A DNA stretch of 64,000 nt from an uncultured Gammaproteobacteria bacterium (GTDB taxonomy: Bacteria; Pseudomonadota; Gammaproteobacteria; Eutrophobiales; Eutrophobiaceae), in assembly GCA_963976795.1 (NCBI GenBank), contig CAXBLT010000004.1:3979-67978 (forward strand), written 5' to 3'. The position numbers were made by a program, and so were the translations under genes. Shown piece by piece: positions 5,867 to 59,159 of this stretch; the stretch's first letter is position 1, and every line of letters starts with the position of its first letter. The notes beneath the pieces were generated by a model. The model did not search any database. It saw nothing but the letters and a program-made list of their open reading frames with translations, and was not told the DNA's origin.

Positions 5867-6193
5867 TTATTTGTGGTCCAGTGATTTTTCTTTTAAAGAC
5901 TGTTCAAGTAAGGCATCAGTTTTTCCACTAAGGATCTTTGCTTGTTCTAATATGGTTCGTGAATTAGTGAAATCATTTTGTGAAAAATAGGGTTTTGCCC
6001 ATGATAAGTAAGCATAAGCTTGTAAGCTTTGGTTTGGTGATTTGCTAGCCTGATTATGTAAATCGTTTGTCACACTAAACAATTTTATTTGGAGTTGTCT
6101 TTCTTTTGTTAGAACACAATTTGTTGTTGTATAGGCATAATCTGACAGTAAGCCGCTTTTGGTTAAGTTTTTCTGATATGCTTTTGCAAACAT
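5867..6193 (-). CDS. hypothetical protein
   Basis: 108-aa ORF; GAGG 8 nt upstream of the ATG; 2 nt after the stop of the upstream ORF. Confidence 0.4.
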   Translation of the reverse strand: MFAKAYQKNLTKSGLLSDYAYTTTNCVLTKERQLQIKLFSVTNDLHNQASKSPNQSLQAYAYLSWAKPYFSQNDFTNSRTILEQAKILSGKTDALLEQSLKEKSLDHK

Positions 6194-6195
6194 CC

Positions 6196-6399
6196 CTATA
6201 GCCTCACAGATTTTTTTTCTTGGTTATAAAGTAAACCATAACCTAGGTAGATAAATGGATTATCTTTTTCTAATAGTTCCAGATGGTTCTTTCTGTTTTC
6301 TCCTCCATACATAGGTAGTAAACTACTATCAGCACTCACCGATATTATGGGTGTAAAGGTTAGGAGTACAATAGTTTTTATAAGCAATTGTTTGGTCAT
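6196..6399 (-). CDS. hypothetical secreted protein
   Basis: 67-aa ORF with N-terminal signal-like helix (LLIKTIVLLTFTPIISVSA). Confidence 0.4.
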   Translation of the reverse strand: MTKQLLIKTIVLLTFTPIISVSADSSLLPMYGGENRKNHLELLEKDNPFIYLGYGLLYNQEKKSVRL

Positions 6400-6426
6400 G
6401 TAGATCTGTATAAAAATTATTTTCTA

Positions 6427-7371
6427 TTAATGTTCTAATAGTGTTTCAAGATGCTTCCCAATACATAATGACAAAGCATTCAAATTATAACCACCTTCCA
6501 ATAAGGAAATAATGCGATTATCACAGTGTTGATCTGCTGATTCCATGATGCGTTCAGTCATCCAGGAAAAAGAATCTGTTGATAGATTTATATTAGCCAA
6601 CGGATCTGCCTGGTGTGCATCAAAGCCTGCAGAGATTAGAATAAACTCTGGTTTGAACAGATCCAGTCCGGGTAGGATATCTTCCATAAAAGCCTTTTCA
6701 TAATCTCCGTCGCTAGCACCAGCCGGCATTGGGCAATTTAAAGTCGCGCTTTTACCTTTGCCAATCCCTGTTTCTGAATAGCTTCCTGTGCCGGGGTAGA
6801 AAGGGTATTGGTGTGTGCTGATATATAAAACCGATGGGTCTTCTTCAAATAAATGTTGTGTCCCGTTCCCGTGATGTACGTCCCAATCTATTATGGCAAT
6901 CTTATCAATACCATGTGTATTTTGAAGATAACGTGTCAGCACTGCAATATTATTAAATAAACAAAACCCCATTGCCATGGACATCTCTGCATGGTGACCT
7001 GGTGGTCGAATTAGGGCAAAGGCATTATCAATATTTTTATTGATAATTTCGTTTGCAAGTTGCATAGAGCTACCTGCCGCAAGTAAGGCTATGTCGAATG
7101 ATTTAATACACACGCTTACATCCATAGAATCCAAGTAGCGATTGCCAGAACGACAAACTTCCTCTGCACGCCGTATATAGCCAGCATCATGAACCTTTAA
7201 TACCTGTTCAAGTTCTGCTGAGTTCGCTTTAATCTGAGTCAAGGTTTCATACCAAGACTGAGCTTCCAGATACTTTAACGTGGCAGATAAACGCGTGCTA
7301 CATTCTGGGTGACCATCTCCTGTATCATGTTCTAAAAATCGTGTGTCTTGTACAAAACCTGTTTTCATCAA
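6427..7371 (-). CDS. histone deacetylase / acetoin utilisation (AcuC) family deacetylase
   Basis: RPPGHHA, DWDVHHGNG and GGY motifs of the Zn-dependent HDAC fold. Confidence 0.9.
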   Translation of the reverse strand: MMKTGFVQDTRFLEHDTGDGHPECSTRLSATLKYLEAQSWYETLTQIKANSAELEQVLKVHDAGYIRRAEEVCRSGNRYLDSMDVSVCIKSFDIALLAAGSSMQLANEIINKNIDNAFALIRPPGHHAEMSMAMGFCLFNNIAVLTRYLQNTHGIDKIAIIDWDVHHGNGTQHLFEEDPSVLYISTHQYPFYPGTGSYSETGIGKGKSATLNCPMPAGASDGDYEKAFMEDILPGLDLFKPEFILISAGFDAHQADPLANINLSTDSFSWMTERIMESADQHCDNRIISLLEGGYNLNALSLCIGKHLETLLEH

Positions 7372-7447
7372 AATAAAGTTTTAATGCCAGTCATCAAGTG
7401 ATTCGTTATTATACGTGTTTTAAGATAACAAAAGACGCAATCTTTCT

Positions 7448-9397
7448 ATGTATAAGCCTAAAAAACCCGTGTTCACAAAACAAAAGGTTGCCTTTGGTTC
7501 CTGGGAATCAACGATCACAACTGATCTGATGCTCAATAGCAGTGTTGGTTTGGGTGAAATCAGTATTTTTGGTACGGATATTTACTGGGTGGAGATGCGA
7601 GCCAATGAAGGGGGCCGTTATGTTATCGTAAAACGAACAAACGATGGACAGGAGTCGGATGCTATTCCTGCTGAATATAACGCCCGTACTCGCGTACATG
7701 AGTATGGCGGTGGCTCATATCTGGTAACGGAGCGCGGTGTGGTTTTTTCTAACTTCGCCGACCAATGTTTATATTTGTTTGACGCTAACAACATATGTAA
7801 GAAACTCACAGTTCAGGAAGATTGTCGTTATGCCGATATAGTCTATGATAAATACCGGGAACGTTTGATTTGTGTGCGAGAAGACCACTCAGACAAAACC
7901 AGAGAAGCGATTAATACCATTGTTACTGTTTCCTTATTAGAGACAGGCGAAGAAACTATTCTCCATAACGGAGCAGATTTCTATTCTAGCCCGCGCCTCA
8001 GTAACGATGGGCAACAGTTATGCTGGATTAGTTGGTTGCACCCCAATATGCCTTGGGATAATACTAGTTTGTATGTTGCTGGTATTGATAGTACGGGTGA
8101 GCTTGAACAAGCAAAGCTGATTGCCGGTGGGGATGACAATGAGGCGGTTTGCCAACCGTCATGGAGTCCTGATGACATACTTTATTTCATATCTGATAAA
8201 AGTAATTGGTGGAACTTATATCGCTCAAGTGAAGAGGGTGTTGAATGTGTTTTAGAAAGTAAAGCAGAGTTCGCCGTGCCTCAATGGTCATTCCGCGAAT
8301 GTAACTATGACTTTATTGATAATGATTCAATCATGGTTGTCTATCGGAAACAAGGCTTGGCATATCTTGGGGTGGTCAACACGAATGAAAAAAAAATGGA
8401 AACCCTGACGTTTCCCTATACGGATATTGAATCGCTAGTCTGTAATAAAAATACTGCTTATTTTTTGGCTGCATCTCCGACTGAATTTGCATCGATTATT
8501 GAATATGATATTGCACAACAAAGTTTTTGTGTAATTCAAAAATCAAATACTATTCGTCTGGATCAAAAATATATTTCTGTTGGTGAGATCATCAGTTTTC
8601 CTGTAGCTGAAGATAAAGAGGCGCATGCCATTTTTTATCGGCCACAGAATAGATATTTCACAGGGCTTGATGATGAAAAACCACCATTGATAGTCATGAG
8701 TCATGGAGGACCAACGGGTGAGTCACATAATGGCCTTAAAATGGTAGCGCAGTTTTTTAGCAGCCGTGGCTTTGCTGTGCTTGATGTTAACTACGGAGGT
8801 AGTAGCGGCTATGGACGGGAATATCGACAGCGTTTAAACGGCAACTGGGGTATCGTAGATGTTAATGATTGCAGCAAGGCAGCACTATACGTTGCAGAAC
8901 AAGGTTGGGCAGATAAAGATCGCCTTGCGATCCGTGGTGGAAGTGCCGGGGGATTCACTACATTAGCCGCATTGGCATTTACTGATGTATTTAAGGCTGG
9001 CGCCAGTCATTATGGTGTTAGTGATCTTGAGGCGTTAACAAAAGAAACGCATAAATTTGAATCTCGTTATCTGGATACATTGATTGGAGCCTATCCAGAA
9101 GAACAAGAGATATACAAGGAACGTTCGCCTGTAAATGCGGTAGAAAAATTATCATGCCCTGTTATTTTTTTCCAAGGCTTGGAAGACAAGATAGTCTTGC
9201 CCAATCAGGCTGAGATGATGGTAGAGGCATTAAAAGCAAAGGGGATTCCGGTTGCATATATTGCCTATGAAGGCGAGCAACATGGTTTTCGGCAAGCCAA
9301 GAATATTAAACGGACATTAGAGTCGGAATTGTATTTCTACTCAACAATATTTAACTTTGAGTGTGCGGATAAGATTGAGCCGGTTGAGTTTCTCTAA
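7448..9397 (+). CDS. S9 family serine peptidase (prolyl oligopeptidase / dipeptidyl aminopeptidase-like)
   Basis: N-terminal beta-propeller-like region; C-terminal alpha/beta hydrolase with GGSAGG nucleophile elbow, D and H (EGEQHGF). Confidence 0.9.
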   Translation: MYKPKKPVFTKQKVAFGSWESTITTDLMLNSSVGLGEISIFGTDIYWVEMRANEGGRYVIVKRTNDGQESDAIPAEYNARTRVHEYGGGSYLVTERGVVFSNFADQCLYLFDANNICKKLTVQEDCRYADIVYDKYRERLICVREDHSDKTREAINTIVTVSLLETGEETILHNGADFYSSPRLSNDGQQLCWISWLHPNMPWDNTSLYVAGIDSTGELEQAKLIAGGDDNEAVCQPSWSPDDILYFISDKSNWWNLYRSSEEGVECVLESKAEFAVPQWSFRECNYDFIDNDSIMVVYRKQGLAYLGVVNTNEKKMETLTFPYTDIESLVCNKNTAYFLAASPTEFASIIEYDIAQQSFCVIQKSNTIRLDQKYISVGEIISFPVAEDKEAHAIFYRPQNRYFTGLDDEKPPLIVMSHGGPTGESHNGLKMVAQFFSSRGFAVLDVNYGGSSGYGREYRQRLNGNWGIVDVNDCSKAALYVAEQGWADKDRLAIRGGSAGGFTTLAALAFTDVFKAGASHYGVSDLEALTKETHKFESRYLDTLIGAYPEEQEIYKERSPVNAVEKLSCPVIFFQGLEDKIVLPNQAEMMVEALKAKGIPVAYIAYEGEQHGFRQAKNIKRTLESELYFYSTIFNFECADKIEPVEFL

Positions 9398-53635: not shown

Positions 53636-53714
53636 GTATAACAAGAAAATCCAGCCGACCTTCGAAAGCGTCGCTTCACTCTGCTTTCTCGGCCGGCTGA
53701 TTTAAACGTTATGT
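53636..53714 (+). other. attC site 4 (79 bp)
   Basis: GTATAAC..ATCCAGCCGACC / GGCCGGCTGAT..GTTATGT. Confidence 0.8.
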
Positions 53715-53760
53715 GTTTCTTGCTGTCGGGTAACTTTTAGCTTCTAACGGTGCAAGGGAA

Positions 53761-55785
53761 ATGAAAAAAATCGATTTTCATATTCATACAATCCCATCGG
53801 TACGAGATGCTCATTTCGTATTTAGCATGGACACGCTTACAAGCTATGTCCTTGAACGAAAATTAGACGCTATTGCGATTACGAATCACGACCTTTTTGA
53901 TATCGCACAATTTTCCCAAATTGCAGAAATACTCGAGGTGCCTGTTTTCCCAGGCATTGAGATAAATATGCAATCAGGGCATTTGTTAGTTATTGATGAC
54001 ATAAACCGTTTGGAAGAATTTCAGGAGAAGGCAGATAAAATTCGCGCGATCGTTAAGAAAGTCGAAGACTATGTCACATTTGATAAATTGATCGAAATCT
54101 ATGGTGATTTAGGAGAGTATTTGGTCATTCCCCATTATCAAAAGAAACCTGCTATCTCGGGAGATGAGCTTAATTGGATACTACCTTATGCATTCGCTGG
54201 TGAAGTTGATTCTCCGAAAAAGTTTGTCAGAATGTGGAACGATTCTAACCAACCCACACCAGTACTTTTCAGTGATATGAGAATAAAGGAGAACCTAACC
54301 AAGTTTTCTAGTAGGTCTACCAGTATTGATTGCGGCGAATTGACTGTAAAAAAAATAAAATTATGCCTTAAAGATAAAGCGAAGGTTCTTCTATCGCCCA
54401 AAGATGGAAACAAACTATTCGAAGCGCTTCCGAATGGCCAGATGATTTCTACCGGGCTTAATGTTGTCCTGGGAGGCCGGTCAACAGGTAAAACTGTAAC
54501 GTTAGAAAAAATTGCCGAACAGATGTATGACCCACTGCATATTGAACAATTTGATTTGGTCCAAAAAGAGGAGGAGCTAGACAAACGGTTATTTGAAGAG
54601 GCCGTGACACGCGATAAATCTCATGTGGAAGAAAATCACCTGCGACCATTCAAAGAAGTGGTAGATAGTGTTTTGAGTATCGATATAGCTGAAAACGAAA
54701 AAGACGTTTCCAACTACATTGCGACACTAATGAAATCGGCATCTGAAACCGCGCTAAGAGATACATTTTCAAATACCGCTCTTTTCGAAGAAACTACATT
54801 CCCAGTCACTTCCGATGACACGTTGAAAGCGTTAATACGGTCGGTTCAGCAGCTTATTGCAAACGCGGATTATAAAAAGATCATCGAGAAATACGTCGAT
54901 AGATCAAAACTGAGAGAACTAGCTTGCGAGTTGATTGAAGAGAGATGGCGCCAAGAAGATGAAATAAGTCAGAAAACTGAGGTAAATTCACTAATAAATG
55001 AGATTAAGCAAGAATTAGATCTCAAATCCGCAGTTGCACCGATTAGCTCCGTTGACTTATATGGCGTAACTCTAGATCAAATTAGGATTGATAGGTTTAC
55101 TGAGATCGTCAAGCTTTTAAAATTCGAGAAGGATATACACGATGAAAAAATTCAAAACTTTAGGGTTGTGGCAAAGAGAAGCCCATTTAAAGGTGCTCAA
55201 GAATTACATGACAAATTAGCTCGCCAAGCATCTTTTTCAGCGGCGTTCAGTGTCTACAATGACCCCTATCGATATCTCCAAGAATTAAAGTGTATTTCGG
55301 CACTTCCAAAGACAGAGATTTATAAGTATTTCGCAAAAACTGACTATAAAATTCTAAATAATGATGGCATAGAAGTTTCTGGTGGAGAGCGTTCTGAGTT
55401 TAGGTTGGTCCAAAAGATAAAACGCGCCACAGTTCATGACATTCTTCTAATAGATGAACCTGAATCTGGGTTTGACAACATTTTTTTGAAATCAAATGTA
55501 AACCAAATTATTAAGGACCTTTCAAAGACACTACCTGTAGTAATTGTCACTCATAATAGCACCATAGGGGCTTCAATCGGGGCGGACTACTTTCTCCACA
55601 CTTCGAAGGAATACGATGACGGCAAAGCTATTTTCAAAATTTATTCAGGCTATCCCGCAGACACTTACTTAACATCAATCGATGGGGCTAGTATTGAAAA
55701 TTACTCATCAACTATAAACGCACTAGAAGCCGGAGCGGACGCTTACAAAGCCAGGAACGAATTCTATGAGAATATTAAAAATTGA
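53761..55785 (+). CDS. cassette 5 gene A: PHP-domain phosphoesterase fused to ABC/SMC-like P-loop ATPase (674 aa)
   Basis: PHP motifs DFHIHT, AITNHD, PGIEI, HLLVID, IPHY, FSDMR. Walker A GGRSTGKT (54472-54495), signature-like SGGER (55378-55392), Walker B ILLIDEPESGFD (55441-55476), VTHN. Confidence 0.85.
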   Translation: MKKIDFHIHTIPSVRDAHFVFSMDTLTSYVLERKLDAIAITNHDLFDIAQFSQIAEILEVPVFPGIEINMQSGHLLVIDDINRLEEFQEKADKIRAIVKKVEDYVTFDKLIEIYGDLGEYLVIPHYQKKPAISGDELNWILPYAFAGEVDSPKKFVRMWNDSNQPTPVLFSDMRIKENLTKFSSRSTSIDCGELTVKKIKLCLKDKAKVLLSPKDGNKLFEALPNGQMISTGLNVVLGGRSTGKTVTLEKIAEQMYDPLHIEQFDLVQKEEELDKRLFEEAVTRDKSHVEENHLRPFKEVVDSVLSIDIAENEKDVSNYIATLMKSASETALRDTFSNTALFEETTFPVTSDDTLKALIRSVQQLIANADYKKIIEKYVDRSKLRELACELIEERWRQEDEISQKTEVNSLINEIKQELDLKSAVAPISSVDLYGVTLDQIRIDRFTEIVKLLKFEKDIHDEKIQNFRVVAKRSPFKGAQELHDKLARQASFSAAFSVYNDPYRYLQELKCISALPKTEIYKYFAKTDYKILNNDGIEVSGGERSEFRLVQKIKRATVHDILLIDEPESGFDNIFLKSNVNQIIKDLSKTLPVVIVTHNSTIGASIGADYFLHTSKEYDDGKAIFKIYSGYPADTYLTSIDGASIENYSSTINALEAGADAYKARNEFYENIKN

Positions 55786-56059
55786 AGACAGCAACGGTCA
55801 CTTTAGCGTTAATGGCGAGGGGTTTGTATCTATTGATAAGCTCGACAAGGAGGGTTTACTCAATTTGGTTAAACTTGCGCTGACAGATGAGATAGAAATG
55901 GACGACTATGATTCAGAGATACTAAAGAATGAAGCTCACCGAATCATTTACAGAAGCGTACACAAAAAACTTCAAGAACTAGCTGCGCGCAAAGACGAGT
56001 TTTTTGACAAGTCAGAGAGAGAGTTTTACGAAATATACGAACACTATAAAAATTCATAG
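55766..56059 (+). CDS. cassette 5 gene B: 97-aa acidic helical protein, translationally coupled to gene A
   Basis: AGGA SD 9 nt upstream; 20-nt overlap with gene A; no recognisable domain. Confidence 0.65.
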   Translation: MRILKIEDSNGHFSVNGEGFVSIDKLDKEGLLNLVKLALTDEIEMDDYDSEILKNEAHRIIYRSVHKKLQELAARKDEFFDKSEREFYEIYEHYKNS

Positions 56060-56116
56060 TATTGGCAGTGAGTGCTGGAGTGAAATCGCACCAGTGTTGA
56101 ATTTTATCGAAGAAAC

Positions 56117-56188
56117 ACATAACAAGGGCATGCAGTGGACGCACCGCTCGCTGCGCTCGCGTTGCGCCACTGATGCCGGGCGTTATGG
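56117..56188 (+). other. attC site 5 (72 bp)
   Basis: ACATAAC..GGCATgCAGTGGaCGC / GCGCCACTGATGCC..GTTATGG. Confidence 0.8.
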
Positions 56189-56482
56189 GTTTTTAAGCTT
56201 CGGTTCAACGTCCATACTGCTGTGAAGAACACGAGCAATAAAAACAGTGCTATTTCTATTTTCATAGAAAATAATATGGCTCTCATAACAATGCTTTCTT
56301 AAGCCTGAAATAATATAGTCACAAGTAATGCCAGAAAGAGGGTTCTCTGCTAAACAATGGAACGCCAAATCCAAACCTTTAAGATAATCTATACGCTGGC
56401 TGGTTCCCCAGGTCTTTTGTGTATATGCAGCGATATTTTTCAAATCGGCCCGCGCGGCTCTGGAAACTACAAATGAGCTCAT
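56183..56482 (-). CDS. parE: cassette 6: ParE/RelE-family type II toxin
   Basis: 99 aa, ParE-like sequence; overlaps the antitoxin by 4 nt; its stop codon is the TTA of the attC5 core. Confidence 0.8.
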   Translation of the reverse strand: MSSFVVSRAARADLKNIAAYTQKTWGTSQRIDYLKGLDLAFHCLAENPLSGITCDYIISGLRKHCYESHIIFYENRNSTVFIARVLHSSMDVEPKLKNP

Positions 56483-56721
56483 TTACCAAGCTCATCATCA
56501 AGTTCCTTCATCAGGCTATCGTAACTATATTCAGTCGTACCGCTAGCTATGCCTTCCTGTATAAGAGTTCGCAATGTTTCAAGCTTTCTATCTTCATCTT
56601 CAAGTTTGCGCAAACCTGCACGAATTACTTCACTTGCAGAACCATAGCGCCCGTCAGATACTTGACGAGATATAAATTCATCAAAATGGTTGCCCAAACT
56701 AATGCTGGTATTTTTAGCCAT
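56479..56721 (-). CDS. parD: cassette 6: ParD-family (RHH) antitoxin
   Basis: MAKNTSISLGNHFDEFI...GRYGSASEVIRAGLRKLE is typical of ParD/COG3609; GAGG SD; imperfect palindrome ACCAATAT..ATATTTTGGT upstream. Confidence 0.85.
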   Translation of the reverse strand: MAKNTSISLGNHFDEFISRQVSDGRYGSASEVIRAGLRKLEDEDRKLETLRTLIQEGIASGTTEYSYDSLMKELDDELGK

Positions 56722-56767
56722 AATTTACCTCACTTATACCAATATTTACTATATTTTGGTACAACAC

Positions 56768-56858
56768 CCACAACAAGTCAATCAAGTGCGTGCGCAAAAT
56801 ACGCGCACTGGACACAAAGCTGCTTCGCATCTTTGTTCCACTTATTGAAACGTTAGAA
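56768..56858 (+). other. attC site 6 (91 bp)
   Basis: CCACAAC..TCAATcAAGTG / CACTTATTGA..GTTAGAA. Confidence 0.7.
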
Positions 56859-56864
56859 GATAAT

Positions 56865-57329
56865 ATGAACTTACTCTTAATCGTGGTACCAATTTTATCT
56901 TTCATTTTGTTCGGTTCCATTGTCGCAATTGTTGCTCCTTTTAAAATATTCTCCACAATTTACACTGATCATTTTAAAAGAGAATTATCATTCGCAATTT
57001 TTACTTTTTTGGTTCTTCCGGTTTTAATAATTACATCACTAATGAACTATCAGCTGCACCATAATTTAAATAGTGACTTTCATAATGTTGTCCGCGTTGG
57101 AGGTATATTAGATACTTATATATTTACCGTCTCCCCGGTATTTTTAGTAGTTGCTGTTCTTGTAAAGGCAAGTGGAAAGGAAGGCTTTAAATTACTCCTA
57201 TGGGGCTCACTTTTTTTAACGTTTACCTTGCCTTTAGTGCTAGTAATTTTTGGCGTTCCAATTGGTGAGTTTTTTGTGAATATGTTGTGGGATGAAGGTA
57301 TATCAGTAAGAAAGATCGTGTTTCATTAA
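56865..57329 (+). CDS. cassette 7: polytopic membrane protein (154 aa)
   Basis: MNLLLIVVPILSF... with 4-5 TM helices. The track start (56790) lies inside attC6. Confidence 0.6.
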   Translation: MNLLLIVVPILSFILFGSIVAIVAPFKIFSTIYTDHFKRELSFAIFTFLVLPVLIITSLMNYQLHHNLNSDFHNVVRVGGILDTYIFTVSPVFLVVAVLVKASGKEGFKLLLWGSLFLTFTLPLVLVIFGVPIGEFFVNMLWDEGISVRKIVFH

Positions 57330-57336
57330 ATTATCT

Positions 57337-57408
57337 TCTAACAAAAAGCTCCAGCGGACGCGCAAAAGGCGCGCTAGATCAGCGCCCGTTGCTATTAGCT
57401 GTTATGTG
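57337..57408 (+). other. attC site 7 (72 bp)
   Basis: TTCTAAC..AGCT..AGC..CGCGC / GCGCCCG..GCT..AGCT GTTATGT. Confidence 0.75.
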
Positions 57409-57453
57409 ACACCGAGCACGTGGGAAACAGCATTCGATTAGGAGCGTTAAGAT

Positions 57454-57732
57454 ATGATTAAAAAGCCATTGGCATCTGTACTTTTTTCCATGGTGATCTA
57501 GGCTCAAGTTAGTTTCGCTCAAGATCAGTCGGAACAGGATAGGAGCATGTGTAAGTACGGCGCTGATCATATGATTGAGATAGCAAAGCAATCTCTGAAT
57601 GAGAAAAGTAGTCGGCCTGAGCGTATTGAAAAACGCAGAACATTAGTCGAAGAATGGAGCACACGAATGGCTAGCGGAGAAGCCCCCTGTAGTGTTTATG
57701 CAGACATTCAAAAAGAGGCTACCACTTTCTAA
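57454..57732 (+). pseudogene. cassette 8: small secreted protein interrupted by in-frame TAG (57499-57501)
   Basis: AGGAG SD, then ATG 57454 encoding MIKKPLASVLFSMVI-TAG-AQVSFAQDQSEQ... The frame is continuous with track ORF 57547-57732. Confidence 0.6.
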
Positions 57733-57741
57733 TGCTTAGTC

Positions 57742-57802
57742 AGATAACTAGTGAAGGTTGTTGAGACGGCCGTACCGGCGGCCCCAACTGCAGGCGTTAT
57801 GA
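57742..57802 (+). other. attC site 8 (61 bp), last of array
   Basis: AGATAAC..GTTG..GGCCG / CGGCGGCCCCAAC..GTTATGA; followed directly by the core gene ndh. Confidence 0.7.
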
Positions 57803-57827
57803 TGACAGGAAGCAGACTAAATATAGT

Positions 57828-59159
57828 TTAGTGTAACTTCATCCTGGGTTTAGTCTTCTGCGTTAAGAAGTTAGCAATCGTTGTCAATGTGACGCGTATA
57901 AAGCCTTGTATTTCTACTTGATGCATTTTGTAGAGTGACCAATAAACCAGCCGTGCTAATACGCCCTCGATCATCATGCTGCCGGCTTTTTTTCCGAGTA
58001 GATTTCCCATCATGTTGCCAACAGTCGAATACCGACTTAGATTTATTAAGGAGCCGTAATCAACATACGTGTATGTGGGTAGTGGTTTGCCATCTATACG
58101 ATTCGTGACGCTTTTAACCAGCATACTCGCTTGTTGATGTGCTGCTTGAGCTCGAGGGGGGACGTTATTGTCCGTGCCTACCATTGGGCATGCGGCACAA
58201 TCGCCTAAGGCAAATATGTTTTCATCGCGTGTGGTTTCCAATGTCGTCTTGACGACGAGTTGATTCATTCTATTTGTTTCTAAACCATCAATTTCTTTTA
58301 GAAAGTCGGGAGCTTTAATACCTGCTGCCCAAACTTTTATTTCCGCCGGAATCAGCCCGCCTTTATCGGTAATAAAACCTTTTTCAGTGGCTTCACTGAT
58401 TCGATGTCCGGTTAAGACATCGACTTTAATTTCTTTTAAGGCATTTTCGGTCATTTCAGACAAGCGTTTGGGTAGGGCGGGTAACACCCTGTCGGATGCT
58501 TCAATAATGGATATACGTACATCATCTTCTGTAGATATATGATCAATACCAAAAGTAACTAATTGATTAAATGCTTCGTGCAATTCTGCGGATAGTTCAA
58601 CGCCTGTGGCGCCGGCACCGGCAATAGCGATTTTTAATTGGCCCTCACGTAGGGGTGTTGTTTGTGTATGTGCGGCATAGGCACTTCGTAACAGGTGTTG
58701 GTGAAAGACATCCGCCTCCTGGCGGGTGTCGAGTACCATACAGTGTTCTTTTATCCCCTTAATATTAAAATTATTAGTTTGGCTACCAACGGCCATGATT
58801 AATGTATCGTAATTGAATGTTCGTCTGGGAATGTATTCATCACCGTTGTCATCTAATGTCGGTGCGAGACTGATTTCTTTTTTATCTCGGTTTAAAGAGT
58901 CCATGCGCCCGAGCCTGAAGGTAAAATGATTCTTATGGGCTAACGCGAGATAACTTAATTCGTCTTCATAAGAATTCAATGTGCCGGCAGCAACTTCATG
59001 CAGTAGCGGTTTCCAAAGATGGGAGCGGGTGCAGTCTACTAATGTAACAAGGACTTTTTTCTTCTTGCCCAGTTTGTTACCAAGCATTGCGGCGAGTTCA
59101 ACGCCGCCAGCACCACCGCCAATGATGATGATATGATGTAATTTGTCTTGTGTGCTCAT
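57828..59159 (-). CDS. ndh: type II NADH:quinone oxidoreductase (NDH-2)
   Basis: Two GxGxxG dinucleotide folds (IIIGGGAGGVE, IAGAGATGVE), 443 aa. Confidence 0.9.
   Translation of the reverse strand: MSTQDKLHHIIIIGGGAGGVELAAMLGNKLGKKKKVLVTLVDCTRSHLWKPLLHEVAAGTLNSYEDELSYLALAHKNHFTFRLGRMDSLNRDKKEISLAPTLDDNGDEYIPRRTFNYDTLIMAVGSQTNNFNIKGIKEHCMVLDTRQEADVFHQHLLRSAYAAHTQTTPLREGQLKIAIAGAGATGVELSAELHEAFNQLVTFGIDHISTEDDVRISIIEASDRVLPALPKRLSEMTENALKEIKVDVLTGHRISEATEKGFITDKGGLIPAEIKVWAAGIKAPDFLKEIDGLETNRMNQLVVKTTLETTRDENIFALGDCAACPMVGTDNNVPPRAQAAHQQASMLVKSVTNRIDGKPLPTYTYVDYGSLINLSRYSTVGNMMGNLLGKKAGSMMIEGVLARLVYWSLYKMHQVEIQGFIRVTLTTIANFLTQKTKPRMKLH

What the first reader, a model, noticed from the sequence alone, without database searches (positions are those of the whole stretch)
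53709..56182. Large two-gene integron cassette: PHP phosphoesterase-ABC/SMC ATPase fusion plus coupled 97-aa acidic protein, a candidate novel defence system
Size and layout:
- The cassette (G53708|TT to G56182|TT) is 2474 bp, against 359-670 bp for its neighbours.
- It carries two genes that overlap by 20 nt.

Gene A (674 aa):
- It begins with a complete PHP metal-dependent phosphoesterase motif set: DFHIHT, AITNHD, PGIEI, HLLVID, IPHY, FSDMR.
- It continues into a P-loop ATPase with Walker A GGRSTGKT, a long helical insertion, an SGGER signature-like motif, Walker B ILLIDEPESGFD and VTHN.
- This is the ABC/SMC/OLD-type ATPase layout, but with an N-terminal PHP nuclease/phosphatase in place of a TOPRIM or HNH effector.

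Gene B is a small, very acidic helical protein with no recognisable domain.

Why it points to defence:
- ATPase-plus-nuclease pairs are the logic of Gabija, Septu, PARIS and OLD-family defence systems.
- A PHP-containing single-gene system (Ppl) was, as I recall, reported in a 2020 defence-island screen.
- Whether this protein belongs to that family cannot be decided here. The coupled small partner and the cassette context are not something I recognise as described.
- Chromosomal integron cassettes have been reported to be rich in compact anti-phage systems, and this one sits next to a ParDE stabilising cassette.
Basis: partly seen in the sequence, partly recalled or inferred. Interest (0 to 1): 0.82.

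Follow-up and report, generated by a model that had tools for sequence, protein, structure and literature searches.

The report
Integron cassette carrying defence candidate PDC-M49
A 2.5-kb integron cassette in a marine bacterium carries a two-gene module (a nuclease-like enzyme fused to an SMC-type ATPase, plus a small partner) that is very probably an anti-phage defence system, but it is already catalogued as the untested candidate "PDC-M49", so it is a good experimental target and not a new discovery.

Summary
The cassette 53709-56182 (2474 bp) is the fifth of eight behind a genuine integron integrase.

Both proteins match PADLOC-DB models full length: PDC-M49A (E 2.4e-272) and PDC-M49B (E 1.6e-31). 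PDC-M49 is a phage defence candidate predicted by guilt-by-embedding (Payne et al., bioRxiv 2024). I found no experimental test of it.

- **Gene A:** a PHP phosphoesterase (closest fold RNase AM / Pol III alpha PHP) fused to a RecN/SMC-like ABC ATPase head with a roughly 180-residue helical insertion. Published descriptions give Ppl the same domain order, but PADLOC's ppl model does not match A.
- **Gene B:** a confidently modelled small alpha/beta protein with no fold match. It is always stand-alone and always follows A. In 19 of 21 full-length loci, spanning Bacteria, CPR and an archaeon, B's start lies in the same 20-nt overlap.
- **Context:** homologues sit beside restriction-modification, Lamassu, DRT-like, Mrr and Schlafen-like genes, on Enterococcus and Staphylococcus plasmids, and in other integron arrays.

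Most likely function: an ATP-driven, nucleic-acid-sensing nuclease complex acting in defence. Verdict: a new member of a known candidate family. Interest is moderate.

The parts
50787..51758 (-). Integron integrase intI
   Evidence: TIGR02249 integron integrase, 435 bits against a cutoff of 265, full length
51914..51943 (+). Pc-like promoter pointing into the cassette array (TGGACA-18-TATAAT, 11/12)
   Evidence: Best promoter-like site in 51700-57900. It is a consensus match only: the region as a whole has no excess of such sites.
53637..53711 (+). attC of the preceding cassette (cassette 4); its R' box GTTAT supplies the G53708|TT junction
   Evidence: Sequence; bottom strand folds as an imperfect hairpin, z -3.1
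53709..56182 (+). Integron cassette 5 of 8, 2474 bp, carrying genes A and B
   Evidence: G|TT junctions at both ends. The cassette start is 14/14 complementary to its own attC R'' side (I24). The Pseudohongiella MAG L003 shows equivalent attC-type junctions at both ends, and L035 shares the 5' junction only.
53761..55785 (+). Gene A, 674 aa: PHP phosphoesterase fused to a RecN/SMC-like ABC ATPase (PADLOC PDC-M49A)
   Evidence: PDLC04680 E 2.4e-272, aligned 1-674 of 674. AF2 model pLDDT 81. Foldseek matches RecN at 3.5e-7 and RNase AM PHP at 1.9e-5, plus MukB, JetC and Pol III alpha PHP.
53761..54405 (+). PHP domain of A (about residues 1-215); candidate metal ligands H7 H9 D16 H43 E67 H74 H125 D172, with R174 in motif IV
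   Evidence: Pfam PHP 25.8 bits. pLDDT above 90 over residues 1-150. The listed residues are invariant or at least 90% conserved in 21 sequences of 30-80% identity.
54472..54495 (+). Walker A GGRSTGKT (residues 238-245)
   Evidence: Position; G238, R240, S241, G243 and K244 are invariant
54571..55119 (+). Helical / coiled-coil insertion between the two ATPase lobes (residues 271-453)
   Evidence: AF2 helices 271-304, 309-332, 353-367, 372-378, 381-420 and 433-453. The SMC/RecN-type head is split in the same way.
55378..55392 (+). ABC signature motif SGGER (residues 540-544)
   Evidence: Aligns to LSGGQ of PstB; S540, G541 and G542 are invariant
55441..55476 (+). Walker B and D-loop ILLIDEPESGFD (residues 561-572)
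   Evidence: Aligns to the PstB Walker B; D565, E566 and D572 are invariant
55546..55557 (+). H-loop VTHN (residues 596-599)
   Evidence: Aligns to VTHN of PstB; H598 is invariant
55766..55785 (+). 20-nt A/B overlap (ATGAGAATATTAAAAATTGA): the start of B lies inside the last codons of A, with a purine-rich Shine-Dalgarno-like stretch in the preceding A codons in most loci
   Evidence: An ATG at -20 in the same relative frame is present in 21 of 21 full-length loci from Bacteria, CPR and an archaeon. In the two CPR loci L018/L019 the conserved B N-terminus begins at a second ATG just after A's stop. The same overlap occurs on an E. faecalis plasmid.
55766..56059 (+). Gene B, 97 aa: small alpha/beta partner (PADLOC PDC-M49B), no known fold
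   Evidence: PDLC04682 E 1.6e-31. AF2 pLDDT 94.5, strands 2-22, helices 28-40 and 56-96. No PDB or BFVD match at E < 0.7. 489 clusters at 50% identity, essentially all 66-167 aa and stand-alone.
56110..56188 (+). attC of the A+B cassette (R'' ...CACATAAC, R' GTTATGG with G56182|TT)
   Evidence: Sequence; bottom strand hairpin -24.5 kcal/mol, z -4.5, with bulged bases
56183..56852 (-). Neighbouring cassette 6: inverted ParD-ParE toxin-antitoxin cassette (context only, not part of the system)
   Evidence: ParD TIGR02606 E 3e-27; ParE_toxin Pfam; promoter-like site at 56781-56753 on the minus strand

Best explanation
The region is a single integron gene cassette in the chromosomal integron of a marine gammaproteobacterium. 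The closest genome is a Pseudohongiella MAG. The cassette carries a complete copy of the two-gene module that PADLOC catalogues as phage defence candidate PDC-M49.

Proposed mechanism:
1. Protein A dimerises through its RecN/SMC-like ABC heads when ATP is bound. This is inferred from the ABC fold and the invariant Walker A, Q-loop, signature, Walker B, D-loop and H-loop residues.
2. A uses the head plus its short coiled-coil arm to recognise or clamp an invader's nucleic acid, such as DNA ends, replication intermediates or small circular DNA. This is inferred by analogy with RecN, Rad50, Wadjet JetC and Lamassu LmuB.
3. The N-terminal PHP domain then acts as the metal-dependent nuclease effector. 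This is inferred from its invariant metal-ligand set and its fold similarity to the exonucleolytic PHP domains of RNase AM and Pol III alpha.
4. Protein B is made in fixed proportion by translational coupling and binds A as an obligate regulatory or adaptor subunit, probably through its 41-residue C-terminal helix against A's coiled coil or head. It would either gate the nuclease until a trigger is sensed or bridge the heads as a kleisin does. This step is the most speculative.

The result would be restriction of phage or other mobile DNA, either directly or by abortive infection.

Shown here: the anatomy, family membership, conservation, obligate A-B pairing, mobility and defence-gene neighbourhood. 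Inferred: every biochemical step and the defence phenotype itself.
For: - Family membership: full-length PADLOC matches to PDC-M49A and PDC-M49B. PDC-M49 is listed as an A>>B candidate in Payne et al. 2024.
- Fold of A: RecN 3.5e-7, MukB, JetC, cohesin SMC1A, Rad50, RNase AM PHP 1.9e-5 and Pol III alpha PHP 1.5e-4.
- ABC motifs: signature, Walker B and H-loop align to PstB.
- Conservation: catalytic residues of both domains are invariant in 21 sequences of 30-80% identity from many phyla.
- Pairing: B follows A in 21 of 21 full-length loci with the junction conserved. B is never fused and is always small.
- Defence neighbours: type I HsdR (E 0), type III Mod+Res, REase_II plus a GmrSD/HEC-06-like protein, LmuB, an IetA-like ATPase, a DRT-like reverse transcriptase and a ZorD-like helicase. 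Also SoFic, PDC-S04, PDC-S24 and type I specificity subunits; a caspase/EAD1/GAP1/DO-GTPase conflict system; and Mrr, Schlafen-AlbA_2 and a PLD-helicase.
- Mobility: other integron-type contexts; a Shewanella island with recombinases; 57 plasmids, where one E. faecalis plasmid carries the pair next to an Abi gene and a RelE/ParE TA pair.
- Patchy spread across Bacteria, CPR and Archaea.
- Integron cassettes are established carriers of defence systems: Kieffer 2025, Darracq 2025 and Getz 2025, as cited.
Against: - I found no experimental test of PDC-M49. PDCs are explicitly unvalidated predictions, and only 4 of 8 randomly chosen PDC/HEC candidates protected E. coli in one study.
- The neighbourhood evidence has no computed background rate.
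- The A family is unusually conserved for a defence gene: length is nearly fixed at 674 aa, and about 50% identity is kept across phyla.
- The PHP motif IV has Arg where, as I recall, canonical PHP enzymes have a metal-binding His. Pfam PHP is just below its cutoff. Nuclease activity and substrate are therefore not assured.
- I found no promoter inside the cassette. Expression as the fifth cassette may be weak.
- The A-B complex could not be modelled with these tools.
Confidence: 0.6

Rival explanations
1. Toxin-antitoxin or addiction module. A is a nuclease toxin and B is its small, acidic, co-translated antitoxin. The pair stabilises the integron array or plasmids by post-segregational killing and does not sense phage.
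For: - The cassette sits next to a ParDE cassette, and TA cassettes are typical of chromosomal integrons.
- On the E. faecalis plasmid the pair lies beside a RelE/ParE TA pair and between recombinases.
- L039 is a cassette-like array with HigB/HTH.
- B is small, mildly acidic and translationally coupled to A.
Against: - A is a 77-kDa two-enzyme protein with a fully conserved ATPase, which is unlike a simple toxin.
- B has no detectable HTH/RHH/AbrB-type DNA-binding domain, lies downstream of A, and is a compact, confidently folded protein with no predicted disordered region (pLDDT 94.5).
- Many loci are in restriction-modification or defence islands and not in maintenance regions.
- TA and defence functions are not mutually exclusive.
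Confidence: 0.12
2. Anti-plasmid or inter-element competition system of the Wadjet or Lamassu kind. The SMC-like ATPase recognises small circular or replicating foreign DNA and the PHP nuclease cuts it, so the main target is plasmids or other mobile elements and not lytic phages.
For: - The structural neighbours of the ATPase part include JetC of Wadjet and MukB.
- An archaeal locus places the pair directly beside Lamassu LmuB.
- The pair rides on conjugative or mobilizable plasmids and islands, where competition between elements is expected.
Against: - The helical arm is only about 180 residues, far shorter than those of loop-extruding SMCs, and no hinge or zinc hook is seen (no CxxC in the arm, translation).
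- No JetA/B/D-like or LmuA/C-like partners accompany the pair, and there are no PADLOC hits to JetC or LmuB for A.
- Its presence on plasmids argues against indiscriminate plasmid killing.
Confidence: 0.13
3. Same complex, different chemistry. The PHP domain acts on RNA or nucleotides, either as an RNase AM-like 5'-3' exoribonuclease or as a phosphatase of a nucleotide signal, and not as a DNA nuclease.
For: - The best PHP fold match is the RNase AM PHP domain: 7ug9, E 1.9e-5, TM 0.56 normalised to the target.
- The motif pattern, with Asp at the third ligand position and the strings DFHIHT / AITNHD / PGIEI, resembles TrpH/RNase AM-type PHP proteins. That comparison is from my memory of the E. 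coli YciV sequence and was not tested here.
- Motif IV is atypical (D-x-R).
- A published counter-defence against Ppl is a Ro60-like RNA-binding phage protein.
Against: - Pol III alpha and PolX PHP domains, which are DNA exonucleases, match almost as well.
- The fused partner is a DNA-handling type of ATPase (RecN/SMC/Rad50).
- No cyclase or other signal-producing gene accompanies the pair.
Confidence: 0.15
4. A non-defensive DNA repair or maintenance factor: an SbcCD/RecN-like end-processing enzyme in one chain, carried by mobile elements for their own replication or integration.
For: - The RecN head is the top structural hit.
- A phosphoesterase plus an SMC-like ATPase mirrors Mre11-Rad50/SbcCD, which follows from established knowledge of those families.
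- Sequence conservation is high.
Against: - Distribution is patchy, sporadic and horizontally transferred. The pair occurs in cassettes, islands and plasmids and never in a conserved core-genome context.
- No NCBIfam housekeeping family matches above its cutoff.
- No phage genome carries it.
- Neighbours are defence genes, not repair genes.
Confidence: 0.07

Closest known systems
PADLOC phage defence candidate PDC-M49 (Payne, Hughes, Fineran & Jackson, bioRxiv 10.1101/2024.01.29.577857; PADLOC-DB v2.0.0)
   Same: Both proteins match the family's own models end to end: A to PDLC04680 at E 2.4e-272 (1-674 of 674), and B to PDLC04682 at E 1.6e-31. Gene order and adjacency are the same A>>B pair listed in the paper's supplement.
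   Different: Nothing differs in the genes themselves. The source of the family was embedding in BREX, DISARM or type I RM systems in RefSeq genomes. This copy is an attC-bounded integron cassette from a marine metagenome. The family has no published phenotype or mechanism that I could find.
Ppl (polymerase/histidinol-phosphatase-like) single-gene defence system (Gao et al. 2020, as described in PMC11482910 and PMC13152194)
   Same: Same domain composition and order: a PHP domain followed by an ATPase that annotators call Smc or SbcC-like. Ppl is experimentally anti-phage, and its mechanism is likewise unknown.
   Different: PADLOC contains a ppl model, but it gave no hit to A at E <= 1. Ppl works as one gene, whereas A always has partner B. 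I could not obtain a Ppl sequence for direct comparison; Gao 2020 is not held.
NCBIfam TrlF family (NF045780) and Spaf_1101 family (NF045781) AAA-like ATPases
   Same: The N-terminal PHP region of A aligns to the N-terminus of the TrlF model (residues 3-87 to model 7-104 of 944, E 1.1e-14). The C-terminal 110 residues of A align to the very end of the Spaf_1101 model (738-835 of 836). This suggests the same overall layout.
   Different: Scores are far below the family cutoffs: 54 against 350 bits, and 27.6 against 475 bits. Those models are 160-270 positions longer. A is not a member.
SMC-like ABC ATPases RecN, Rad50/SbcC, MukB, Wadjet JetC and Lamassu LmuB
   Same: An ABC head split by an antiparallel helical arm, with Foldseek matches from E 3.5e-7 (RecN) to about 2e-3 (Rad50). 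The pairing of an ATPase with a phosphoesterase or nuclease follows the logic of Mre11-Rad50 and of the Lamassu and Wadjet effectors.
   Different: The arm is short at about 180 residues, with no hinge or zinc hook. The nuclease is a PHP domain fused in the same chain, not a separate Mre11, Toprim or Cap4 protein. Sequence similarity is confined to the ABC motifs. PADLOC LmuB and JetC models do not hit A.
ABC-ATPase plus nuclease defence pairs: Gabija GajA (OLD), PARIS AriAB, Septu PtuAB
   Same: The general logic of an ABC ATPase sensor coupled to a nuclease. There is a weak AriA hit at E 0.0096 over the ATPase region.
   Different: The effector is PHP, not Toprim or HNH. The second gene is a 97-aa non-enzymatic protein and not the nuclease. 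There is no significant sequence relationship.
Bacteriophage-resistance integron cassettes (Kieffer 2025; Darracq 2025; Getz 2025)
   Same: A compact defence-type module packaged as an attC-bounded cassette in an array that also holds a TA cassette.
   Different: At 2474 bp it is much larger than its neighbours. One study reports that cassette recovery falls as cassette size rises (R = -0.54). No PHP or SMC-type system is named in the integron papers I could read; the two Science papers and the Nature Microbiology paper themselves were not read.

Membership tests
PADLOC PDC-M49 | Protein A matches a PDC-M49A HMM | tested here: met
   PDLC04680 E 2.4e-272, 903.5 bits, 1-674 of 674; also PDLC04678 and PDLC04679
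PADLOC PDC-M49 | Protein B matches a PDC-M49B HMM | tested here: met
   PDLC04682 E 1.6e-31, 1-96 of 97; also PDLC04683 and PDLC04681
PADLOC PDC-M49 | The two genes are adjacent, on the same strand, in the order A then B | tested here: met
   A 53761..55785 and B 55766..56059, both on the + strand; listed as FAM_00021>>FAM_01695 / FAM_02682 in the source paper
PADLOC PDC-M49 | Confers anti-phage protection (what the candidate is proposed to do) | not testable with these tools
   No experimental report found; PDCs are described as unvalidated
Ppl (Gao 2020) | Matches the Ppl profile used by PADLOC | tested here: not met
   No ppl hit among the 9 families at E <= 1. PADLOC does carry a ppl model, because it called ppl in S. 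epidermidis.
Ppl (Gao 2020) | PHP domain followed by an ATPase domain in one polypeptide | tested here: met
   PHP at residues 1-215 and the ABC head at 228-665; the Ppl description comes
Ppl (Gao 2020) | Single-gene system | tested here: not met
   Partner B is present in 21 of 21 full-length loci, in the conserved overlap or, in two CPR loci, immediately after A's stop
Integron gene cassette | Lies in an array next to an integron integrase and attI | tested here: met
   intI scores 435 bits on TIGR02249; the array runs 52043-57796 directly downstream of the divergent intI
Integron gene cassette | Bounded by G|TT junctions with an attC (R''-L''...L'-R' imperfect palindrome) at the 3' end | tested here: met
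   G53708|TT and G56182|TT; attC hairpin with bulges, z -4.5; 14/14 complementarity between the cassette start and its own R'' flank
Integron gene cassette | The cassette can be excised and inserted by IntI | not testable with these tools
   Indirect support only. L003 has equivalent attC-type junctions at both ends behind different neighbours, and L035 shares the 5' junction only. Cassette-sized contigs L033 and L034 end in palindromic or attC-like sequence.
PHP (polymerase and histidinol phosphatase) superfamily, Pfam PF02811 | Passes the Pfam gathering score | tested here: not met
   25.8 bits against a cutoff of 26.4, covering only the first half of the model. Some homologues carry a precomputed PF02811 hit.
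PHP (polymerase and histidinol phosphatase) superfamily, Pfam PF02811 | PHP fold with a conserved His/Asp/Glu metal-ligand set | tested here: met
   Foldseek to RNase AM PHP at 1.9e-5, Pol III alpha PHP at 1.5e-4 and the BAD_1165 phosphoesterase at 8.2e-4. H7, H9, H43, E67, H125 and D172 are invariant; D16 and H74 are at least 90% conserved. The last ligand position is Arg (R174).
SMC/RecN/Rad50-type ABC ATPase | Walker A, Q-loop, signature, Walker B, D-loop and H-loop, with a coiled-coil arm inserted between the N and C lobes | tested here: met
   Motifs and invariance; helical insertion at 271-453; RecN, MukB, JetC, SMC1A and Rad50 fold matches
SMC/RecN/Rad50-type ABC ATPase | Hinge or zinc-hook dimerisation element at the tip of the arm | tested here: not met
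   No CxxC motif and no hinge-sized domain in 271-453; the tip is low-confidence at 331-346
NCBIfam TrlF / Spaf_1101 AAA-like ATPases | Score above the curated cutoff | tested here: not met
   54.1 against 350 bits and 27.6 against 475 bits
Type II toxin-antitoxin pair | A small antitoxin with a DNA-binding domain and a disordered toxin-binding tail, usually upstream of a small toxin | tested here: not met
   B is downstream of A, compactly folded (pLDDT 94.5), and has no HTH/RHH or other Pfam/NCBIfam domain. A is 674 aa. Toxicity itself was not testable.

The most novel reading that the evidence does not exclude
PDC-M49 is a genuine defence system that works in a way not yet described. In this reading, a single-chain 'Mre11-Rad50 analogue' (a PHP nuclease fused to a short-armed SMC-like ATPase) has its activity gated by a partner with a new fold, and the expression ratio of the two is fixed by a 20-nt overlap conserved from Archaea to CPR bacteria. 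The integron cassette would define the minimal self-sufficient unit. Solving the mechanism would also explain the architecture-sharing but still mechanistically opaque Ppl system.
Probability: 0.3. Interest if true: 0.6.

Novelty: new member of a known kind. Interest (0 to 1): 0.4.

Why it matters
If A+B protects against phages or plasmids, it would turn one of PADLOC's 145 untested candidates into a validated system. It would also give a tractable two-protein model for the PHP-plus-SMC-like ATPase class, to which the validated but unexplained Ppl system belongs by architecture.

The cassette boundaries supply a natural definition of the minimal functional unit: two genes and no third component.

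The family is widespread. I counted at least 1442 A homologues at 90% clustering, in Bacteria, CPR and Archaea. It also sits on Enterococcus and Staphylococcus plasmids from clinical isolates, so its host-range effects could matter for phage therapy.

B is a well-folded protein with no structural relative, which makes it a candidate for a new regulatory principle.

Against that, neither the prediction nor the integron-as-defence-bank idea is new.

Tried and rejected
1. Crude attC scans using strict RYYYAAC/GTTRRRY consensus found nothing. The sites here use looser boxes (xxATAAC/GTTAxxx), so I mapped the junctions by eye and by folding instead.
2. Sequence search of PDB gave only weak ABC-motif hits with the full protein and with the profile, and nothing with the PHP domain alone. 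No relative of this family has a solved structure.
3. PHROGs gave nothing significant. tblastn against 50,697 phage genomes gave no match, so this is not a phage gene.
4. Fold searches for B against PDB and BFVD gave a best E of 1.5 and 0.72, so no assignment is possible.
5. Looking for A-B fusions as evidence of interaction failed. P0119 (803 aa) is only a mis-called N-terminal extension. P0358 (286 aa) is a frameshifted A C-terminus joined to B. No real fusion was found.
6. I tried to read Gao et al. 2020 for a Ppl sequence or architecture, but the paper is not held. Staphylococcus plasmid hits that might have been Ppl turned out to be two-gene PDC-M49-type loci.
7. Literature searches for 'TrlF' and 'PplA' returned only unrelated papers. 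'PDC-M49' returned none.
8. The search for a cassette-internal promoter found nothing in 53709-53760. Promoter-like sites in the region are no more frequent than in shuffles: 13 found against 19.3 expected.
9. Base composition gives no sign of foreignness: the cassette has GC 0.397 against 0.391 for the core.
10. The other cassettes of the array have no PADLOC or NCBIfam match apart from ParD.

Full report
**1. What is in the sequence**

The two ORFs are exactly as described. Gene A is 53761..55785 (+), 674 aa. Gene B is 55766..56059 (+), 97 aa. They share 20 nt.

The integron is real:
- A 323-aa integron integrase lies at 50787..51758 (-), scoring 435 bits on TIGR02249 against a cutoff of 265.
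- The best promoter-like site in the region (TGGACA-18-TATAAT, 51914-51943) points from the intI/attI side into the array.
- Reading the sequence gives eight cassettes bounded by G|TT junctions: 52043-52401, 52402-52760 (a 99% duplicate of the first), 52761-53148, 53149-53708, 53709-56182 (A+B), 56183-56852 (ParDE, inverted), 56853-57401 and 57402-57796.
- The A+B cassette is 2474 bp. The others are 359-670 bp.
- The attC sites fold as imperfect bulged hairpins, with z-scores of -4.5, -3.1 and -3.6.
- The first 14 nt of the A+B cassette are perfectly complementary to the R'' flank of its own attC. This is what a single cassette carrying both genes should show.

The window matches a 225-kb marine metagenome contig, and a Tara Oceans scaffold carries the same genes. 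The nearest genome is a Pseudohongiella MAG, with 80% identity for A.

**2. What the proteins are**

Both proteins match PADLOC-DB v2 models over their full length. A matches PDC-M49A at E 2.4e-272 (1-674 of 674). B matches PDC-M49B at E 1.6e-31.

'PDC' stands for phage defence candidate. There are 145 such systems, predicted because homologues are found embedded inside BREX, DISARM or type I RM loci (Payne et al., bioRxiv 2024). The supplement of that paper lists the A>>B pair as 'Assign as candidate PDC-M49'. Later papers describe most PDCs as unvalidated. I found no paper that names PDC-M49 or tests a PHP-type integron cassette.

Pfam sees only a sub-threshold PHP hit. NCBIfam gives only far-sub-threshold hits: the N-terminus of the TrlF family, the C-terminus of the Spaf_1101 family, and ABC transporter signature regions. 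No housekeeping family matches.

**3. Structure of A**

The AF2 model has mean pLDDT 81, and above 90 in the PHP domain. It shows four parts:
- a PHP barrel at about residues 1-215;
- an ABC N-lobe carrying Walker A;
- a helical insertion of about 180 residues (271-453);
- an ABC C-lobe carrying the signature, Walker B, D-loop and H-loop, followed by a small beta-rich C-terminal region.

Foldseek against PDB returns RecN (E 3.5e-7), MukB, Wadjet JetC, cohesin SMC1A and Rad50 for the ATPase part. For the N-terminal domain it returns the PHP domains of RNase AM (1.9e-5) and Pol III alpha (1.5e-4). A profile search of PDB sequences aligns SGGER, LLIDEPES and VTHN to the signature, Walker B and H-loop of PstB.

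I aligned 21 sequences of 30-80% identity, from Proteobacteria, Bacteroidota, Bacillota, Omnitrophota, CPR, an archaeon and an Enterococcus plasmid:
- PHP residues H7, H9, H43, E67, H125 and D172 are invariant, and D16 and H74 are at least 90% conserved.
- ATPase residues G238, K244, Q263, S540, G541, G542, D565, E566, D572 and H598 are invariant.

Both activities are therefore under strict selection. One departure from the canonical PHP set is that motif IV reads D172-x-R174 where, as I recall, canonical PHP enzymes have D-x-H.

**4. Structure and distribution of B**

B is modelled with pLDDT 94.5. It has a three-stranded beta-meander (residues 2-22), a helix (28-40) and a 41-residue C-terminal helix (56-96). 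It has no significant structural neighbour in PDB or in predicted viral structures.

B is mildly acidic, with pI 5.05. A profile search of 1.84 billion representatives finds 489 clusters at E <= 0.001, and essentially all are stand-alone proteins of about 66-167 aa. The one apparent fusion is a frameshift artefact. Conserved positions include K28, the stretch around N55-Y62 ('N-x-A-H-x-I-I-Y'), F79 and Y94.

**5. The A-B link**

All 21 full-length A loci recovered from one-genome-per-species contigs have a small ORF with an ATG exactly 20 nt before A's stop, in the same relative frame. Usually a purine-rich Shine-Dalgarno-like stretch lies in A's preceding codons. The junction reads T-ATG-A.......AA.A.TGA, encoding '...YE.LKN*' in A and 'MK.LKIE..KG.F' in B. 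In the two CPR loci the conserved B N-terminus begins at a second ATG just after A's stop.

The same overlap is annotated on an E. faecalis plasmid. This is strong evidence for obligate co-expression and, by inference, for a complex.

**6. Genomic company**

Immediate neighbours of the pair in other genomes include:
- a type I HsdR (E 0);
- a type III Mod+Res pair;
- a type II REase plus a GmrSD/HEC-06-like enzyme;
- Lamassu LmuB, in an archaeon;
- an IetA-like ATPase;
- a DRT-like reverse transcriptase;
- a ZorD-like helicase.

A pooled scan of 127 neighbour ORFs also shows SoFic, PDC-S04, PDC-S24 and type I specificity subunits. Other loci carry a caspase/EAD1/GAP1/DO-GTPase conflict system with transposases, or an island with a PLD-helicase, Schlafen-AlbA_2, DUF2726 and Mrr. 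I did not compute a background rate, so this is qualitative support.

The pair is also mobile:
- It sits in a Shewanella island with recombinases.
- It is on 57 plasmids: 45 Enterococcus, 9 Staphylococcus, and one each of Rhizobium, Phaeobacter and Clostridium. On one E. faecalis plasmid it lies beside an Abi gene and a RelE/ParE pair.
- It occurs in other integron-type settings. The Pseudohongiella copy (L003) has equivalent attC-type junctions at both ends behind different neighbours, and the Tara copy (L035) shares the 5' junction. L039 is a cassette-like array with HigB/HTH. Cassette-sized metagenomic contigs end in palindromic or attC-like sequence.

Most loci outside Gammaproteobacteria have no attC. 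The module is therefore not integron-specific; integrons are one of several vehicles. No phage genome carries it.

**7. Relation to Ppl**

Published descriptions say Ppl is a single gene with a PHP domain followed by an ATPase that annotators call Smc or SbcC-like. They also say PADLOC detects it and that its mechanism is unknown. A has that same architecture. However, PADLOC's ppl model did not hit A at E <= 1, and A has an obligate partner.

I therefore treat A as Ppl-like in design but as a separate family. I could not obtain a Ppl sequence for a direct comparison.

**8. Most likely mechanism (inferred)**

The steps I propose are:
1. ATP-dependent head engagement of an A dimer.
2. Recognition or clamping of invader nucleic acid by the head and short arm, as in RecN, Rad50, JetC and LmuB.
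3. Hydrolysis by the fused PHP nuclease.
4. B acting as a stoichiometric regulator or adaptor.

The rivals are a TA/addiction role, a mainly anti-plasmid role, RNA or nucleotide chemistry for the PHP domain, and a non-defensive repair role. The first three overlap with the main model rather than excluding it.

Expression in this array probably depends on read-through from Pc, because I found no cassette-internal promoter.

**9. Verdict**

The defence reading is reasonable and now better supported. The claim of novelty fails, because this is a textbook member of the already catalogued, still untested candidate PDC-M49, here packaged as an unusually large integron cassette.

Its value is as a clean minimal construct for the first functional test of this family and, by extension, of Ppl-type PHP-ATPase systems.

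Noticed in passing
window 52043-52401 and 52402-52760: The first two cassettes of the array are 359-bp tandem duplicates at 99% identity. Each carries a 60-aa ORF with no PADLOC match.
   Followed up: partly
window 56183-56852: The ParDE cassette is inverted relative to the array. It has its own promoter-like site (56781-56753, minus strand), and the ParE stop codon overlaps the R' box of the A+B cassette's attC (GTTA at 56182-56185).
   Followed up: partly
window 55766-55785; loci L003-L026, L032: The 20-nt A/B overlap and the peptide pair it encodes ('YE.LKN*' in A, 'MK.LKIE' in B) are conserved across bacterial phyla and an archaeon. This is an unusually deep conservation of a dual-coding junction. 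The two CPR loci L018/L019 also have an ATG at -20, but there B's conserved N-terminus starts at a second ATG just after A's stop.
   Followed up: partly
one search hit list; L033 (2477 bp), L034 (2692 bp): Many metagenomic contigs that carry A homologues are only 2.3-2.8 kb long, about the size of the cassette. L033 ends in mutually inverted repeats, and L034 has attC-like sequence on both sides. This fits assembly breaks at cassette borders that have variable flanks.
   Followed up: partly
L032 (E. faecalis plasmid NZ_CP124933.1, 27574-29899) and one search hits H30, H31: The same two-gene module, at 27-40% identity, is on plasmids of Enterococcus and Staphylococcus isolates, including ones from human clinical samples, annotated only as 'histidinol-phosphatase' or 'hypothetical protein'. 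The one Enterococcus locus I inspected is flanked by recombinases, a Mu-type transposase, an Abi gene and a RelE/ParE pair.
   Followed up: partly
L015 1156-3180 (Nitrososphaeraceae archaeon MAG): A Lamassu LmuB homologue (E 2.2e-98), by coincidence also 674 aa, lies about 2.8 kb upstream of the archaeal PDC-M49 pair. Two SMC-like defence ATPases therefore sit in one island.
   Followed up: no
window 54268-54282 (A residues 170-174, FSDMR): PHP motif IV has Arg (R174) where, as I recall, canonical PHP enzymes have the last metal-binding His. D172 is invariant and R174 at least 90% conserved across the cross-phylum alignment. This could mean a two-metal site or an altered substrate.
   Followed up: partly
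L020 (Pontiella sulfatireligans), A match 6001-7674: The A reading frame stops after 513 codons while similarity continues to residue 570. This is probably a disrupted copy.
   Followed up: no
window 52761-53148 and 53149-53708: Cassette 3 encodes a small putative lipoprotein: its N-terminus is a hydrophobic signal-like segment ending in L-L-A-C. Cassette 4 encodes a 180-aa protein with two CxxC pairs followed by hydrophobic segments. Neither has a family match.
   Followed up: partly
window about 47800-50712 (L001 78-2952): A HAMP/HisKA sensor kinase and a sigma-54-type response regulator lie immediately beside intI, on the side away from the cassette array.
   Followed up: no
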